The position numbers were made by a program, and so were the translations under genes. A stretch of 64,000 nucleotides of DNA from an uncultured delta proteobacterium (GTDB lineage Bacteria > Desulfobacterota > Desulfobacteria > Desulfobacterales > SG8-13), in NCBI GenBank assembly GCA_963825595.1, contig CAWGUE010000017.1, positions 18,779 to 82,778 on the forward strand. Reading direction: 5' to 3'. How positions within the stretch are numbered: position 1 is the stretch's first letter; every line of letters begins with the position of its first letter. A model generated the notes under the pieces. The model ran no database searches and had not been told where the DNA came from. It was given only the letters and a program-made list of their open reading frames with translations. This document shows positions 13,886-62,314 of this stretch, in pieces.

Positions 13886-15001
13886 CTATCTTTCCCGCTT
13901 ATGGTAAAAAGCTTTCCGGAATGCTGGAAAGCGCTGTTCGGCAATAGCTGACTGCATGTCGCCGGCGAGCCGGATGAAATAGTATATATTGTGAATCGTG
14001 TTCAATCGGAAGGCCAGAAGTTCCCTTGCCATGTACAAGTGGCGCAGATACGCCCGCGAATAGTTCCGACAAGTGTAACAGTCACAGGTTTCATCCGGCG
14101 GTTTCGTGTCTGCTCTGAACCGCGCATTGCTGATGTTCAGCGTACCGCAGGCGGTAAACAGCTGCCCGTTGCGCGCATTGCGGGTCGGCAATACACAGTC
14201 GAACATGTCGGCCCCCATCGCCACCAGTTCCACGAGATCTTCCGGTTTGCCGACCCCCATGACGTATTTTGGATGAGAAGCCGGAGTCCTGGGCAGTATG
14301 TGATCGGCGATTTCCAGCATGGCATCTTTAGGTTCACCTACACTGAGTCCGCCTAAGGCATAACCGTTGAACCCGATAGCGACTGTCAGGTCGAGGGACT
14401 GCTCCCTCAAGTCCTTGAACATTCCGCCTTGAACGATGCCGAACAACGCCTGGTGCCCATCCGTCCGATTCCGCCAGGCTGTTTTGCACCTCTCGGCCCA
14501 GCGGGCGGTCAATTCCAAAGCCTTGCGGGCTGTATCCCGATCTGCCGGATATGCGATGCATTGATCCAGACACATGATGATGTCGCTGTCGAGGCCCACC
14601 TGGATTTCAACGGACTTCTCGGGGCTGATCAAATGCGGCGACCCATCGATGTGAGACTGAAATACCGCACCTTCTTCACTGATTTTGGATAATTGCGCCA
14701 GAGAAAACACCTGAAAGCCGCCGCTGTCGGTCAGAATCGGGCCGTTCCAATTCATAAACCTGTGCAGCCCGGCAAATTGTTCGATTACCTCGCAACCGGG
14801 CCTCAGGTAGAGGTGATAGGTGTTACCCAGAATGATCTGGACGCCACACTGTACCAATTCCTCCGGGCTCACCGCCTTAACGGTCCCCAGGGTCCCCACC
14901 GGCATGAACACCGGCGTTCGCACCTTTCCGTGAGCGGTTTCGATTTCACCGGTTCGCGCGCGGGTTTCTTGGCAAGAGGCGAAAACGTTGAAGTCAAACA
15001 T
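13886..15001 (-). CDS. tgt: queuine tRNA-ribosyltransferase
   Basis: 371 aa. [24 protein letters not shown] and [17 protein letters not shown] zinc-site motifs. Confidence 0.95.
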
Positions 15002-15015
15002 GAGATGATAATACC

Positions 15016-15166
15016 GTGTTAGGTTTTAGGCTTGTTGGTTTTAATGATTTGACCAGAGCAGGGACCATTTTTGATATGCTTTTCAAATCGCCAATTCTTC
15101 AAATGATGAATAAGCCATTTCCCTCCCCCCATTCGTTTAAAACCTAACACTTAATACCAAAACGCC
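15016..15166. repeat. small element bounded by inverted degenerate heptad arrays (13-bp perfect termini)
   Basis: GTGTTAGGTTTTA at 15016-15028 and its exact reverse complement TAAAACCTAACAC at 15138-15150. Both sit inside degenerate 7-mer runs (15016-15046, 15138-15166). The element fills the tgt-queA spacer. Confidence 0.65.
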
Positions 15167-15171
15167 ACATT

Positions 15172-58913: not shown

Positions 58914-60227
58914 ATGAGAAAGGGCTTAAGACTGTTTGGGGCAATCGGTCTATCGTGCCTGCTGACCGTGGCGGCATCCCCGCTGTACGCCGGCGGCATC
59001 ATCAACAAACAAAACCAGAGCGCGGACTACATGCGCACGCTCAACCGCAGCGCGGCAACGGATTATCCCGACATTGCCGTCTACAACCCCGCCGGCATCA
59101 TGAAAATGGAAAACGGCGCCTATGGCAAGATCGACGCGATGTACTTCAGCAAGGACTACTCCAACGACGTCCCCGGTTTCGGCAAACTCAGCTCGGACAA
59201 GCCCTCGGTCATACCGGGCGCTTTCGCCCTCTATAAACAAGACCGCTGGGCCGGATTTTTCGCCTTCACCGTACCCGCCGGCGGCGGGGAACTCGATTAC
59301 AAGGACGGTGACGCCCGCACCGTGGCCCTGGCCGAGGGGGTTGCCGCTAATGCAAACTTTCAGTTAGGGAACGCCGGCGTTCCTTCCACGTTTTTTTACA
59401 ACCAGATCGATGCCATGGAGCTTCAGGTCAAGCAGAGCACCGTGCTCGGCTTCACCCTCGGCGGCTCCTTCGCCCTCAACGATATGTGGTCCTTTGCCGC
59501 CGGTTTGCGCTACGCCACCGGTACGCGCGAGTTTGACGGTGGCGCCACCATCAGCGCAGCCACCTCGGCCCCCTCACCCCCGTTTCCTGCGGGCGTAAAC
59601 GACCCCCTCGCTCCGAGCCTGCGGCTCGAGGAGGACGCCAGCGGGTGGGCCGGCATCCTGGGCGTCAATTTCGCCTGGGAGGACCTCAACGCGGCTGTCA
59701 CATTCATCTCAAATACCAAGATGGATTACAAGATGAACGTGCGGCGCGACACCCTCGGCATTGCCCCGGCCCTGGGCTTTGCGGACGGCTCGCGCCGGCG
59801 GATCGACATCCCGGGCCTGCTCGGCTTCGGCGTCTCCTACAGGTTCCTGCCCCAGTTGAAGGTGGATGTCAACTACGTCCTCTACCTCGAATCGAGCGCG
59901 AGCATCGACACGTACGAAGACGAAGGCAACAGCTGGGATCTCGGCCTGACGGCCGAATACATGTTCTCGCCCAAGTGGAAGGCCAGCCTCGGCTACCTGT
60001 ACACGGACATCAAGGTGGACGACAACCAGCAGATCAACGAACCGGAAGAGCCGAAACTGGGCGCCAACACCATTGGTCTCGGTGCCGTCTTCAGCCCCAC
60101 CCCGGCCTGGGACATCACCTTCGGCGGTGCTTACGTCATGTACAATTCCGTAACCGACAGCATGGGCATCGAATACGACAAAAAGGTGTGGAACCTGTCG
60201 GCCGGTGTGACTTGGAAGTTTTTCTAG
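58914..60227 (+). CDS. FadL/OmpP1/TodX-type outer-membrane transport protein
   Basis: ATG at 58914 after AGGAGGAGGAGGG. Signal ending PLYAGG. N-terminal hatch-like segment. C-terminal AGVTWKFF. Confidence 0.65.
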   Translation: MRKGLRLFGAIGLSCLLTVAASPLYAGGIINKQNQSADYMRTLNRSAATDYPDIAVYNPAGIMKMENGAYGKIDAMYFSKDYSNDVPGFGKLSSDKPSVIPGAFALYKQDRWAGFFAFTVPAGGGELDYKDGDARTVALAEGVAANANFQLGNAGVPSTFFYNQIDAMELQVKQSTVLGFTLGGSFALNDMWSFAAGLRYATGTREFDGGATISAATSAPSPPFPAGVNDPLAPSLRLEEDASGWAGILGVNFAWEDLNAAVTFISNTKMDYKMNVRRDTLGIAPALGFADGSRRRIDIPGLLGFGVSYRFLPQLKVDVNYVLYLESSASIDTYEDEGNSWDLGLTAEYMFSPKWKASLGYLYTDIKVDDNQQINEPEEPKLGANTIGLGAVFSPTPAWDITFGGAYVMYNSVTDSMGIEYDKKVWNLSAGVTWKFF

Positions 60228-60310
60228 GATAAAATTTTGGGAGAAAAACGCCCAAAATTTTATGTGACTACATATAAAAACCCCCTGGAGAAAAAATCTC
60301 CAGGGGGTTT

Positions 60311-62237
60311 TTATATAATGCGACTGAAGGCCTTCTCCAAATCCCGGCCCGTCCACTGCACCCACGTCGGTCTCCCATGGGGGCAGTGGGAGGGATTTTC
60401 GCAGGCATCCAGCTGCTGGAGCAGCCGCCGGATCTGCCGGTCATCGAGGGCCTGGCGGGCCCGGATCGACCCGTGGCAGGCCATGAGCTTCAGACAGACG
60501 TCGATGGACGGGTCCAACCCGCGGTTAAACCCGTCGGTGGCCAGTTTTTCCACGATCTCGCGGATCAGCGGTTCGATCGCCCGCCCGGTCAGCATGGCAG
60601 GAACCGCCCGCACGACGAACGTGTTGGTACCGAAGGGCTCGATCTCGAGCCCGAGGGTTTTGAACTCGGCCAGCAACTCTTCCAGAATACCGGCTTCCCG
60701 GAACCCCAATTCGATCGTCTCCGGAACCAGCAGCCGCTGGGCCTCCTTTTTCAAGGCCGCGGAGCGCTTCTTGAGCTGCTCGTAAAGCACGCGCTCGTGG
60801 GCGGCATGCTGATCGAGAAGAAGCAATCCCCCGCCGGTTTCGCAAACGATGTAGGCGTTGCCCAGCTGCCCGATGATCCTTAAATTACCGAAGCGAATTT
60901 CCGCCAGGAAAATCTGCGGTTCACCCCGGCTACCGGACAAATATTTCCAGGGCTCGCGCTCGTCATCCGCTTTATGACGGGCGGATGTTTTCCCTCCATC
61001 CCGGCCGCTGAAAATTGTCGGCAGGCCATCGATCGGCGTCGCGACCATGTATATCACCAACCCGCCTTTGACCTTTCCCCTTTTCCCTTTCAGCTTTCAG
61101 CTTTGAGCTTTCAGCTTCACCCTTTGAGCTTTGACCTTTCAGCTTTGAGCTTTGAGTTTCATAACCGGTTCCCAGATTTTCGGAAATACGCGGTATTGCC
61201 TGTGAAGGCTCAGGCGGCGTGAAATCCGCCCCTTTCCACATCGGCCGGTCCTCTCGGTCGAGGGTTTCCGCTACCGCGGTCTGCACCAGGTCGTGAACGA
61301 GGCGTTGCTGCGCAAAACGGACCTCGTGCTTGGTCGGATGAACGTTGACGTCCACCTCGCCGCTGGGAAGGGTGACAAAAAGGGCGGCCAACGGAAAGCG
61401 GCCTTTAACCAACCGCTGCCGATAACCCGCAAACAGAGCATGTTGAATGACCCGGTCGCGCACAAACCGACCGTTGACATAATTGAAAACCCCGCGCGAG
61501 GTGCTGCGGAATACCCGCGGAGAAGACACCCAACCATCGACGCTGACCGCATCGGCCTGCCGGCCGACCGGATAGAGTTCGGCGCGCAGGTCGGTCCCCA
61601 ACACCTCGGCCACCCGGTCAAGCCGATCGGCAGCCGGCGGCCAGCTCTTCAGGGTTTTGCCGTTGTGCACCAGCCGGAAAAAGACTTCCGGTCGTCCCAG
61701 GGCGATGCTGTTGGCAACATCGGCAATGTGACCCATCTCGGTGGTGACGGTTTTCATAAATTTGCGGCGCGCCGGGGTGTTGAAAAAAAGGCTCTCGACC
61801 GTCACCATCGTGCCCGGCGGCGCACCGGTGTCCGCGACTTTCAGAATCTTTCCTCCCGCCACGCGAATCTCGGTACCGGCGGCGGCTTCCGACTCGCGGG
61901 TGACAAGGGTCAAGCGGGACACCGCCGCGATGCTCGGCAGGGCCTCACCCCTGAACCCGAGGCTTTGAATCGAATACAGATCGGCATCCGTGAAGATCTT
62001 GCTCGTGGCGTAGCGTTCAAGGGCCAGCAGGGCGTCGTCGCGGTTCATGCCGCTGCCGTTGTCGGATACCCGGATCAGACTGCGGCCCCCTTTTTCCGCC
62101 TCCACAACGATCTTGGTGCTTCCCGCATCCAGGGCGTTTTCCACCAATTCCTTGACCACCGAAGCCGGCCGCTCGACCACTTCTCCGGCAGCAATCTTGT
62201 TGGAAATGATTTCAGGGAGGATTCTTATTTTGGACAT
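60311..62237 (-). pseudogene. mutL: DNA mismatch repair endonuclease MutL, reading frame broken inside a heptad array in the linker
   Basis: ORF 60972..62237 holds the GHKL ATPase (ELVENALDAG, DNGSGM, GFRGEAL) and transducer. ORF 60311..61060 holds the C-terminal domain (DQHAAHERVLYE, ACHGSIRA, CPHGRP). The frames differ by 1 nt. The upstream TGA of the C-terminal frame is at 61097-61099, within the array. Confidence 0.9.
61064..61161. repeat. heptanucleotide array inside mutL, 14 units (AGCTTTG/AGCTTTC/CCCTTTC/ACCTTTC)
   Basis: GCCTTTG ACCTTTC CCCTTTT CCCTTTC AGCTTTC AGCTTTG AGCTTTC AGCTTCA CCCTTTG AGCTTTG ACCTTTC AGCTTTG AGCTTTG AGTTTCA = 98 nt. Confidence 0.95.
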
Positions 62238-62314
62238 GATTAGGTTGTGTTTTGTGTTTGGTGTTTAGTTTTTTGTGTTTGGTGTTTGGTGTTTAGTGTT
62301 TTGTGTTTTGTGTT
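62238..62314. repeat. heptanucleotide array, GTGTTTG type, 11 units
   Basis: It starts at the base next to the mutL ATG (62235-62237) and contains the last 25 codons and stop of the four-helix-bundle ORF. Confidence 0.95.

What the first reader, a model, noticed from the sequence alone, without database searches (positions are those of the whole stretch)
14999..62260. C/A-rich heptad arrays sit on the sense strand directly against start codons of four genes that have no Shine-Dalgarno sequence
In the mRNA sense, the start contexts are:
- tgt: CCTAAAACCTAACACGGTATTATCATCTC-ATG (15001).
- The 653-aa membrane protein: ACCCGTAACCCGTATCCCAAAC-ATG (27403).
- GSCFA: CACCAAACACCAAACACGGTATTTATC-ATG (46917).
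- mutL: CAAACACAAAACACAACCTAATC-ATG (62237).

In all four the array orientation gives CAAACAC/GTAACCC-type (purine-poor, G-poor) RNA. No GGAG-like element fits between the array and the ATG. Most other genes in the window have strong AAGGAGG/GAGGAG sites. Two junctions share ACACGGTATT(T)ATC.

It is established that unstructured A/C-rich leaders can drive SD-independent, S1-dependent initiation. The arrays may therefore act as length-variable translation initiation regions rather than junk. That would link repeat-number changes to expression of tgt, mutL and an operon-internal transporter gene.
Basis: partly seen in the sequence, partly recalled or inferred. Interest (0 to 1): 0.7.

Follow-up and report, generated by a model that had tools for sequence, protein, structure and literature searches.

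The report
Variable heptad repeats abutting start codons
Short 7-base repeats that gain and lose units between close relatives sit directly in front of several conserved genes lacking a normal ribosome-binding site; this kind of repeat has been described before, its function is still unproven, and here some arrays are the paired arms of a small gene cassette.

Summary
True heptad arrays of about 10 units end 3-10 nt before the ATG of the 653-aa transporter gene, GSCFA and mutL. The tgt "array" is only a degenerate remnant. All four starts lack an SD, and their local leaders are very unstructured.

- Most are arms of inverted pairs, G/T-rich then C/A-rich on the + strand. That layout automatically gives every outward-facing gene a C/A-rich leader.
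- The complementary G/U-rich arms sit against stop codons.
- The arms are predicted to pair in the polycistronic RNA.

Orthologous loci show that unit number changes: 10 vs 9 at 98% nucleotide identity, and 0 to more than 15 overall. Unit type can be swapped. Array-less orthologues of mutL are equally SD-less.

The arrays therefore form the initiation region and are length-variable. Nothing shows that they drive or tune initiation.

The same placement, SD-absence and strand polarity were published for other heptamers (MacGregor 2015; Rehm 2015). I rate this a new member of a known kind. The IVP-cassette link is the fresh lead.

The parts
27408..27476 (-). Solo heptad array of about 10 units (GTAACCC/GTAACTC/GCAACCC in mRNA sense). 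It ends 4 nt before the ATG (27403) of the 653-aa transporter gene and lies 80 nt after the stop (27555) of the DUF6785/6784 gene.
   Evidence: TRF gives 9.6 copies at 90% match. The sequence was read directly. No partner arm and no significant fold, z = 0.34. Orthologues carry 9, about 7, about 6, 2-3 or 0 units.
25442..27403 (-). 653-aa membrane protein, named 'peptide transporter' in homologues. It has an SD-less start.
   Evidence: Homologues are 84-99% identical and 652-653 aa long, with one of 659 aa. Anti-SD dG is +0.5.
46836..46906 (+). C/A-rich arm of about 10 units (AACCCGT, AACACCG, AACACCA). It lies in the 5' leader of GSCFA, whose ATG is at 46917.
   Evidence: TRF. A sigma-70-like promoter at 46784-46811 lies upstream of the array, and that stretch is conserved in L211 and L212. 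Orthologues have only 2-3 units.
46607..46658 (-). Partner arm (CACAAAA/CACCAAA in the sense of the divergent carbamoyltransferase gene). It lies about 50 nt upstream of that gene's ATG (46557), with an AAGAGGA SD in between.
   Evidence: Orthologues have 3-4 units.
62240..62317 (-). C/A-rich arm of about 10 units (AACACAA/AACACCA/AACACTA). It ends 7 nt before the mutL ATG (62237). It is also the 3' arm of the IVP cassette, and the IVP ORF reads into it.
   Evidence: TRF gives 10.1 copies. Sequence read directly. It pairs with 62682-62739 in the RNA fold, z = -4.99.
62318..62668 (-). [quoted passage not shown] It has its own SD (GAGGGGG).
   Evidence: Pfam E = 1e-27. SD dG is -11.1. The same layout occurs in L086, L122, L126, L142, L151, L121 and L035.
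62682..62739 (+). 5' arm of the IVP cassette. It is C/A-rich on + and therefore G/U-rich in the sense of geneX, IVP and mutL. It overlaps the stop (62738) of geneX (62738..63043, minus strand).
   Evidence: The geneX C-terminus matches the gene that precedes mutL in relatives lacking the cassette.
15016..15043 (-). Degenerate C/A-rich heptad remnant (CCTAAAA, CCTAACA) 14 nt upstream of the tgt ATG (15001).
   Evidence: Not detected by TRF. Conserved in L208, and replaced by a CTAAAAT/CCAAAAT-like stretch in L209 and L210.
15137..15166 (+). Inverted partner of the tgt remnant, 6 nt after the queA stop (15172). A 13-nt exact complement links 15138-15150 with 15016-15028.
   Evidence: The fold pairs the arms, but z is only -1.57.
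39968..40044 (-). C/A-rich arm directly against the conserved N-terminus (NILFYAPFKPLGH) of a GT4 glycosyltransferase gene. The gene has no canonical start codon; an ATT lies at 39966-39968.
40185..40217 (+). Inverted partner arm overlapping the stop (40206) of the upstream glycosyltransferase gene (40206..41471, minus strand).
   Evidence: The arms pair with z = -4.72.

Best explanation
These are slippage-prone heptanucleotide microsatellite arrays of the 'long simple sequence repeat' class. They have colonised intercistronic spacers and 5' leaders in this Desulfobacterales-like genome.

The arrays are strand-polarised. The G-poor C/A-rich strand is in mRNA sense next to start codons, and the complementary G/U-rich version sits next to stop codons. 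They mostly occur as inverted pairs flanking either a promoter-bearing spacer or an IVP gene.

Next to a start codon the C/A-sense array contains no G. It therefore has no ATG, GTG or TTG, nothing SD-like and no self-structure. That makes it a permissive leader for the structure-dependent, SD-independent initiation these genes already used. The array thus is the initiation region and is length-variable.

I regard it as a tolerated, selection-filtered passenger rather than a sequence-specific enhancer or a calibrated expression dial.

Shown here: presence, polarity, abutment to starts, absence of SD, low local structure, unit-number turnover, and array-independent SD-lessness of mutL.

Inferred: that selection on translation is what filters the orientation, and that initiation runs through S1, a standby site or low structure.
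For: - Arrays and SD absence.
- Local MFE of the four initiation regions is lower in magnitude than almost all of 32 other genes.
- Unit turnover at orthologous sites with conserved proteins:
  - Transporter: 10, 9, about 7, about 6, 2-3 or 0 units, plus a different heptad in L203.
  - GSCFA: 10 against 2-3 units.
  - mutL: 0, 2-3, 5-6, about 10 and 15 or more units. L121, with 95% identical MutL, carries CGCAACC instead.
- Array-less mutL orthologues have a C/A-rich SD-less spacer, taactaacaataaacaccaatt-ATG.
- Cross-phylum survey: 22 of 41 C/A-sense arrays end within -5..+25 nt of a start, against 1 of 23 G/T-sense arrays. Even counting 6 ambiguous G/T-sense cases the split is 22 against 7.
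- Both orientations occur on the + strand of the window (4 against 5). The bias therefore follows genes, not replication.
- Signs of invasive behaviour: one array abuts a GT4 gene that lacks a canonical start, and one runs into the IVP ORF end.
- Published parallels: PMC4679880, PMC4692102, and PMC5397173 (low structure around non-SD starts).
Against: - The tight abutment (0-13 nt) and persistence of a GTAACCC-type array at the transporter start across 90-99% protein identity could reflect positive function rather than tolerance.
- In the polycistronic transcripts of tgt and mutL the C/A arm is predicted to pair with the G/U arm. 'Unstructured leader' therefore does not hold there unless the RNA is processed.
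- Arrays abut stop codons as often as starts (25 of 37), which a translation-filter model does not explain.
- My gene calls in foreign loci are ORF-based and unverified.
- There are no expression data.
Confidence: 0.5

Rival explanations
1. Active, tunable initiation element. The C/A-rich array recruits the 30S subunit, for example through ribosomal protein S1 or as a standby site, and the number of units sets the translation rate of tgt, mutL, GSCFA and the transporter.
For: - No SD and very low local structure.
- Arrays end 0-13 nt from the ATG in many phyla, and only in the C/A sense.
- An array persists at the transporter start over 90-99% protein identity.
- From my own knowledge: CAA-rich leaders such as TMV omega bind S1 and enhance SD-independent translation in E. 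coli.
- The same proposal was made for TAACTGA repeats (PMC4679880) and for Nostoc heptamers (bioRxiv 10.1101/2022.06.06.494920).
Against: - Array-less mutL orthologues are equally SD-less.
- Unit number runs from 0 to 15 or more, and unrelated heptads (CGCAACC, ACAACGG, TGGAAAC) replace each other at the same site with no change in the protein.
- The carbamoyltransferase gene keeps a normal SD downstream of its array.
- The arms are predicted to be base-paired in the tgt and mutL transcripts.
Confidence: 0.2
2. RNA-stem cassette, resembling a 23S rRNA intervening sequence. The arrays exist as the two arms of a long double-stranded RNA stem that brackets an IVP gene or its remnant in polycistronic mRNA. 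The stem is a processing or stability element, for example an RNase III substrate. Contact with start and stop codons is a by-product of insertion into very short intercistronic spacers.
For: - Four inverted pairs lie in the window.
- Long-range stems of 23-72 bp appear in the MFE structures of all IVP cassettes, with z = -4.99 for mutL and -4.72 for GT4.
- Arm heptads differ between cassettes, yet the two arms of each cassette match.
- The cassette sits exactly in the roughly 22-nt geneX-mutL spacer seen in relatives without it.
- In L121 it is replaced by an IVP only 20% identical, with different arms.
- G/U arms abut stops and C/A arms abut starts.
- In an array-agnostic sample, 4 of 7 IVP genes have heptad arrays and 2 of 7 have clear inverted arms.
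Against: - The transporter array is solo and unstructured.
- The GSCFA/carbamoyltransferase arms lie on divergent transcripts with a promoter between them.
- The tgt stem is not significant, z = -1.57.
- The 'empty' spacers show no significant IVP remnant.
- Only 7 of 120 array loci contain an IVP gene.
- The opposite layout (C/A then G/T) exists in Verrucomicrobia.
- RNase III cleavage is untested.
Confidence: 0.2
3. DNA-level element. The arrays act on DNA rather than RNA, as binding sites for a repeat-recognising protein (possibly the IVP protein itself), as G-quadruplex or i-motif formers on the G-rich strand, or as recombination handles.
For: - (GGGTTAC)n on the template strand of the transporter leader has the four or more G3 tracts needed for a G-quadruplex.
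- The same polarity (G-rich strand antisense upstream of ORFs and sense after stops) was reported for G4-forming GGGNATC heptamers (PMC4692102).
- IVP genes co-occur with arrays in four phyla.
- Cassettes have been swapped at one site.
Against: - CCAAACA/GTGTTTG-type arrays have only GG runs and cannot form canonical G4 structures.
- There is no simple match between IVP clade and arm type. The L126 IVP is 59% identical to the window's IVP but has ACAACGG arms.
- The arrays lie downstream of the one recognisable promoter.
Confidence: 0.1

Closest known systems
Start-codon-proximal TAACTGA heptamer repeats of marine Beggiatoaceae, some cyanobacteria and Bacteroidetes (MacGregor 2015, PMC4679880)
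   Same: Tandem 7-nt units lie in 'forward' orientation within a few nt of start codons and overlap the expected ribosome-binding site. Most downstream genes have no SD. Indels come in 7-nt steps between strains. S1-type SD-independent initiation was proposed, and no functional theme links the downstream genes.
   Different: The units here are CCAAACA/CACAAAA and GTAACCC, in a Desulfobacterota host. Arrays are longer (about 10 units against mostly 2-6). Inverted pairing and linkage to an IVP gene were not described there.
G-rich GGGNATC heptamer repeats of Xanthomonas and Nostoc (Rehm et al. 2015, PMC4692102)
   Same: The strand polarity is identical. The G-rich strand is antisense within 50 bp upstream of ORFs and sense within 50 bp after, or overlapping, stop codons. 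Unit number varies, the repeats are intergenic, and they are transcribed.
   Different: Those repeats were selected for G4 potential and prefer four units. Only the GGGTTAC array here could form a G4, and the CCAAACA type cannot.
Long simple sequence repeats with 5-11-nt units (Mrazek et al. 2007, as summarised in PMC4679880)
   Same: Heptanucleotide units dominate, the repeats are enriched in intergenic regions, their phylogenetic distribution is scattered, and the presumed origin is slippage.
   Different: That is a purely statistical class. It does not address start-codon abutment, strand polarity or inverted pairing.
23S rRNA intervening sequences carrying an S23p/IVP ORF (Leptospira, Coxiella and others; my own knowledge plus the Pfam PF05635 description and PMC10053308)
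   Same: A PF05635 ORF is bracketed by inverted repeats predicted to form a long stem in the transcript.
   Different: The host transcript is an mRNA operon (geneX-mutL), not 23S rRNA. The arms are heptad microsatellites. RNase III excision is untested.
Contingency-locus SSRs of host-adapted pathogens, such as uspA2 AGAT repeats in a 5' UTR (cited in PMC4679880; see also PMC12721329)
   Same: A tandem repeat lies between promoter and start codon, and its copy number varies between strains.
   Different: The genes here are housekeeping (tgt, mutL, transporter). Units are 7 nt. There is no evidence of ON/OFF switching, and the proteins are conserved regardless of unit number.

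Membership tests
Long simple sequence repeats (heptanucleotide microsatellites) | Head-to-tail tandem units of 5-11 nt, far longer than chance allows | tested here: met
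   TRF finds 7-10 units at 82-93% match. The counts are 27 against 0.48 expected and 13 against 2.9 expected, reached by 0 of 100 shuffles. The tgt element fails this test.
Long simple sequence repeats (heptanucleotide microsatellites) | Copy-number change in whole units between related genomes | tested here: met
   10 against 9 units at 97.8% nucleotide identity. Series of 10, 7, 6, 2-3 and 0 units. 10 against 2-3 units. 0 to 15 or more units at mutL.
Start-proximal heptamer repeats (MacGregor type) | Repeat in forward orientation ending within a few nt of the start codon | tested here: met
   Distances of 4, 10 and 7 nt. 22 of 41 arrays across phyla.
Start-proximal heptamer repeats (MacGregor type) | No Shine-Dalgarno sequence between repeat and start | tested here: met
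   dG from +2.2 to -3.1 kcal/mol.
Start-proximal heptamer repeats (MacGregor type) | Unit sequence TAACTGA | tested here: not met
   The units are CCAAACA/CACAAAA and GTAACCC.
G4-forming GGGNATC heptamers (Rehm type) | G-rich strand antisense upstream of ORFs and sense just after stop codons | tested here: met
   Window: 6 starts in C/A sense and 3 stops in G/U sense. Survey results.
G4-forming GGGNATC heptamers (Rehm type) | Four or more G3+ tracts able to fold into a quadruplex | tested here: inconclusive
   The GGGTTAC array has G3 tracts and the GTGTTTG type has none. Folding was not tested.
23S-rRNA-IVS-like element | PF05635 ORF inside the element | tested here: met
   Met for the mutL pair only, E = 1e-27. 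The other pairs are empty.
23S-rRNA-IVS-like element | Terminal inverted repeats forming a long stem in the transcript | tested here: met
   A 34-bp stem with z = -4.99. This is in silico only.
23S-rRNA-IVS-like element | Insertion in a 23S rRNA helix and excision by RNase III | tested here: not met
   There is no rRNA in the window (Rfam gives 0 hits). The host is an mRNA operon. Cleavage cannot be tested with these tools.
S1-dependent SD-independent leader / translational enhancer | Single-stranded, SD-free leader next to the start | tested here: inconclusive
   Locally unstructured, but paired with the upstream arm in the full tgt and mutL transcripts.
S1-dependent SD-independent leader / translational enhancer | Translation depends on the element and on S1 | not testable with these tools
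   This needs reporter fusions or toeprinting. Array-less orthologues that are also SD-less argue against dependence.
Phase-variable contingency locus | Unit changes switch a gene ON/OFF by reading frame or promoter spacing | tested here: not met
   The arrays lie in leaders downstream of the one recognisable promoter. The mutL frameshift is not at a heptad array. Coding arrays change in 21-nt steps.

The most novel reading that the evidence does not exclude
PF05635 'intervening-sequence protein' genes are the cargo of a widespread cassette bounded by inverted heptad microsatellite arms. The cassette is found in Desulfobacterota, Planctomycetota, Bacteroidota and Cyanobacteria.

It inserts into, and is swapped at, very short intercistronic spacers. 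It folds into an IVS-like stem in the mRNA. It leaves its C/A-rich 3' arm as the SD-less leader of the downstream gene.

On this reading, many 'orphan' start-proximal heptad arrays are arms or relics of such cassettes. That would give the long-unexplained heptamer repeats and the functionless IVP family a common origin.
Probability: 0.3. Interest if true: 0.7.

Novelty: new member of a known kind. Interest (0 to 1): 0.42.

Why it matters
Heptanucleotide arrays next to start codons have been reported in Beggiatoaceae, cyanobacteria, Xanthomonas and Bacteroidetes for a decade, without a demonstrated function.

This window and its relatives provide natural allelic series at three conserved housekeeping genes. 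The series cover 0 to 15 or more units, alternative unit types, and arrays with and without a partner arm. That is the material needed for a clean reporter or metatranscriptome test of whether such arrays matter for SD-independent initiation.

The recurrent bracketing of IVP genes by matched inverted arrays is, as far as the searchable literature shows, undescribed. It could connect two orphan phenomena.

Tried and rejected
- mutL switched off by heptad slippage: rejected. Against L121 the reading frame is intact through the internal array. The +1 shift lies in 60968-60998, about 70-100 nt downstream of the internal array in the gene's sense. It is probably a long-read indel, because sibling assemblies show similar split genes.
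- 'Empty' inverted pairs as decayed IVP cassettes: not supported. HMM E-values are about 1 and nucleotide alignments are not significant.
- IVP clade determines arm heptad: no simple correlation.
- Leaderless tgt or GSCFA mRNA from a -10 box within GGTATT(T)AT: no promoter-like hit on the right strand for tgt. The GSCFA promoter is upstream of the array.
- Universal G/T-then-C/A layout: false. Ten C/A-then-G/T pairs exist, seven of them from one Verrucomicrobia family.
- IVP next to most arrays: false, only 7 of 120 loci.
- Known RNA family: none in Rfam.
- Exact-protein look-ups for the window's own TGT and GSCFA: not on record.
- Partner arm for the 27408 array: none found.

Full report
**What is there.**
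- TRF finds period-7 arrays at 27408-27474, 39975-40043, 40184-40215, 46616-46653, 46835-46906, 62245-62315 and 62695-62742. It also finds an array inside mutL at 61065-61160.
- The repeats are far beyond chance. CAAACACCAAACAC with up to 2 mismatches occurs 27 times against 0.48 expected. GTAACCCGTAAC occurs 13 times against 2.9 expected. No shuffle reaches either count.
- The tgt element is different. It consists of two imperfect units, CCTAAAA and CCTAACA, at 15016-15043, which neither TRF nor my period-7 filter reports.

**Gene identities and starts.**
- Pfam confirms TGT, QueA, GSCFA, and MutL as N- and C-terminal halves in two reading frames. It also confirms two GT4 glycosyltransferases, a carbamoyltransferase and a DUF6785/DUF6784 protein upstream of the 653-aa protein.
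- The starts next to the arrays are correct. All 120 best homologues of the transporter are 652-653 aa, apart from one of 659. TGT homologues are about 371 aa and GSCFA homologues about 315-322 aa.
- About 35 mutL orthologues begin MSKI(K/R)IL at the same ATG.
- Homologue names and locus titles place the window in Desulfobacterales-like Desulfobacterota.

**SD and structure.**
- Duplex energies with the anti-SD are -3.1 (tgt), +0.5 (transporter), -3.1 (GSCFA) and +2.2 (mutL) kcal/mol.
- Clear SD genes in the window reach -8 to -13, but only about a third of ORFs do so, and about 40% are weak or SD-less. 'Most other genes have strong SDs' is therefore overstated.
- Locally (-50..+30) the four initiation regions fold at -2.9, -3.1, -8.5 and 0.0 kcal/mol. 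The 32 other genes average -14.1 +/- 5.7, and the least structured of them is -4.8.

- On the + strand the arrays form inverted pairs, G/T-rich then spacer then C/A-rich: 15016-15043/15137-15166, 39968-40044/40185-40217, 46607-46658/46836-46906 and 62240-62317/62682-62739. Only 27408-27476 is solo.
- This layout is unchanged by strand flip. Every gene that points away from a pair automatically sees a C/A-rich leader, and every gene that runs into a pair has a G/U-rich array at its stop codon.
- The stops of queA, the 40206 glycosyltransferase gene and geneX (62738) are indeed touched or overlapped by G/U-sense arms.
- The '4 of 4 in C/A sense' therefore reduces to 'the pairs have this layout'.
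- One gene start in the window has a G/U-sense array upstream, and that gene has a good SD. [quoted passage not shown]
- A further C/A arm lies about 50 nt upstream of the carbamoyltransferase ATG, with a normal SD in between.
- Another abuts a GT4 gene whose conserved N-terminus (NILFYAPFKPLGH) has no canonical start codon.

**RNA pairing.**
- The arms pair in predicted folds of the sense transcripts. The stem is 34 bp around the IVP gene (z = -4.99), 32 bp for the GT4 pair (z = -4.72), and a weaker, non-significant stem for tgt (z = -1.57).
- No sigma-70-like promoter lies between queA and tgt, between geneX, IVP and mutL, or before the transporter gene. These genes are probably co-transcribed with their upstream neighbours, and both arms would then be in one RNA.
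- For GSCFA a promoter-like TTTGCA-16-GATAAT lies between the arms and upstream of the array, and that stretch is conserved in two relatives. There the array is a genuine single-armed 5' leader.

**Comparative evidence.**

*mutL (metagenome loci).*
- Relatives without any array have the geneX stop followed by about 22 nt, taactaacaataaacaccaatt, and then the ATG. This is SD-less and already C/A-rich.
- Others have 2-3, 5-6, about 10 or 15 or more CCAAACA-type units at the same place.
- The closest relative, L121 (95% MutL identity), has CGCAACC x3 instead. L126 has ACAACGG-type units.
- Where an array is present, an IVP gene and a matching upstream arm are present too (L086, L121, L126, L142, L151; L122 lacks a detected upstream arm; L133, L152 and L153 carry arrays without a detected IVP gene). 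Arm heptads differ between cassettes, but the two arms of each cassette match.
- The L121 IVP is only 20% identical to the window's IVP, so the whole cassette has been exchanged at one site.

*Transporter.*
- The window has 10 units. A 97.8%-identical contig has 9. Relatives at 98%, 96% and 90% protein identity have about 7, about 6 and 2-3 units.
- One relative has TGGAAAC x4, and 85%-identity relatives have none.
- The array always ends 3-7 nt before the ATG, and no array-bearing version has an SD.

*GSCFA.* The window has about 10 units against 2-3 in relatives, and both arms are conserved in position.

*tgt.* The degenerate leader is conserved at 95% identity and replaced by a CTAAAAT/CCAAAAT-like stretch at 85%. 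No version has an SD.

**Cross-phylum survey.**
These came from Chitinophagaceae, Flavobacteriia, Saprospiraceae, Planctomycetota, Verrucomicrobiota, Desulfobacterota, cyanobacteria and others.
- I used simple ORF-based gene calls, which is a caveat. By these arrays have a gene start downstream in C/A sense, against 23 in G/T sense.
- 22 of the 41 end within -5..+25 nt of the start, against 1 of 23 (7 if ambiguous calls are included).
- The junctions show array-ATG with no SD.
- The C/A-sense 3' end abuts convergent stop codons equally often (25 of 37). The 5' end abuts nothing. This holds for arrays without a detectable partner as well.
- Inverted pairs are common: 21 in the G/T-then-C/A layout and 10 in the reverse. 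Seven of the reverse pairs belong to one Verrucomicrobia family with a spacer of about 65 nt.
- Only 7 of the 120 loci contain an IVP gene.
- In an array-agnostic sample of IVP homologues (2 plasmid loci and 5 viral-contig loci), 4 of 7 have a G- or purine-rich heptad array just upstream and 2 have a clear inverted partner.

**Interpretation.**
- The data show that the arrays constitute the initiation region of SD-less, conserved genes. They are length-variable on short evolutionary timescales, and their orientation relative to starts is non-random.
- The data do not show that the arrays cause or tune initiation. SD-lessness predates the arrays at mutL. Unit number and even unit type are free to vary. 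One array seems to have overrun a start codon.
- My preferred reading (confidence about 0.5) is a slippage-driven repeat class filtered by selection. In C/A sense it has no start codons, nothing SD-like and no self-structure, so it is a permissive leader for structure-dependent, SD-independent initiation (compare PMC5397173).
They remain open and are not mutually exclusive.

**Relation to the literature.**
- MacGregor (2015, PMC4679880) described TAACTGA heptamers ending a few nt upstream of SD-less starts, with 7-nt indels between strains, and proposed S1, Csp or CsrA-type translational roles.
- Rehm et al. (2015, PMC4692102) described the same strand polarity for GGGNATC heptamers: the G-rich strand is antisense upstream of ORFs and sense at stop codons.
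- A Nostoc preprint speculates that heptamers near start codons affect translation.
- The finding is therefore a new member of a known, functionally unresolved kind.
- I found no paper linking PF05635 genes to heptad arrays. That link is the most novel lead.

**Side result.** mutL in the window is split by a +1 frameshift at 60968-60998, not at the internal heptad array. Sibling long-read assemblies show similar split genes, so an assembly indel is likely.

Noticed in passing
window 60311-62237 (-), shift zone 60968-60998: mutL is split into an N-terminal ORF (ATPase plus DNA_mis_repair domains) and a C-terminal ORF (MutL_C) by a +1 frameshift relative to L121. The shift lies about 70-100 nt downstream of the internal heptad array in the gene's sense. 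It is probably a long-read indel, but a real pseudogene is not excluded.
   Followed up: yes
window 61065-61156 (-); L121-L151 at about +1080 to +1140 of mutL: The disordered MutL linker is encoded by a heptad array (CTCAAAG/CTGAAAG). Nearly all relatives have a heptad array at the same place but with different units (CAGCATC, CGGCATT, GGAAGTC, AAATCCG). The window differs from L121 by 21 nt, i.e. three units or 7 aa.
   Followed up: partly
window 39966-40044 (-): The GT4 glycosyltransferase ORF has a conserved N-terminus (NILFYAPFKPLGH) directly against a C/A array. It has no ATG, GTG or TTG, and only an ATT at 39966-39968. Either it uses a non-canonical start or the array has destroyed the start.
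   Followed up: partly
window 62240-62668 (-): The IVP reading frame has lost its usual stop and runs on through the C/A array to 62240. It is 142 aa against 121 aa in L086.
   Followed up: partly
L121 339-882 compared with window 62240-62739: At the same geneX|mutL junction, a relative with 95% identical MutL carries an unrelated IVP (20% identity) flanked by GGGTTGC/GCAACCC arms. The cassette has been exchanged at a fixed site.
   Followed up: partly
L002, L025, L026, L049, L061, L092, L113: Verrucomicrobia MAGs carry a repeated element of the opposite layout: a C/A arm, a spacer of 63-72 nt, then a G/T arm. It may be a dispersed hairpin element.
   Followed up: no
window 15060-15100 (-): The queA-tgt spacer encodes an SD (GGGAGGG), an ATG and MAYSSFEELAI followed by a stop. 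This resembles the IVP N-terminus MGFVRFEELRV, but the match is not statistically significant.
   Followed up: yes
L215 (Calothrix plasmid) 1042-1579; L218 880-1306: IVP homologues found without reference to repeats are also bracketed by inverted heptad arms (TTAGCTG/AGCTAAA and GGCTTGG/TAAGCCC).
   Followed up: partly
L208 2110-2340: A relative has an extra insert of about 230 nt between queA and the tgt hairpin. It contains two copies of a C-run/G-run palindrome (cccccctggcccccctttcttgaagggggg and cccccctttgacaaaggggg).
   Followed up: no
window 15010-15019 and 46903-46912: ACACGGTATT occurs exactly twice, at the tgt and GSCFA junctions. It is conserved in the tgt orthologue L208 but not in the GSCFA orthologues. 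A similar AAAGGTATTTTTATA-ATG junction follows an array in L088.
   Followed up: partly
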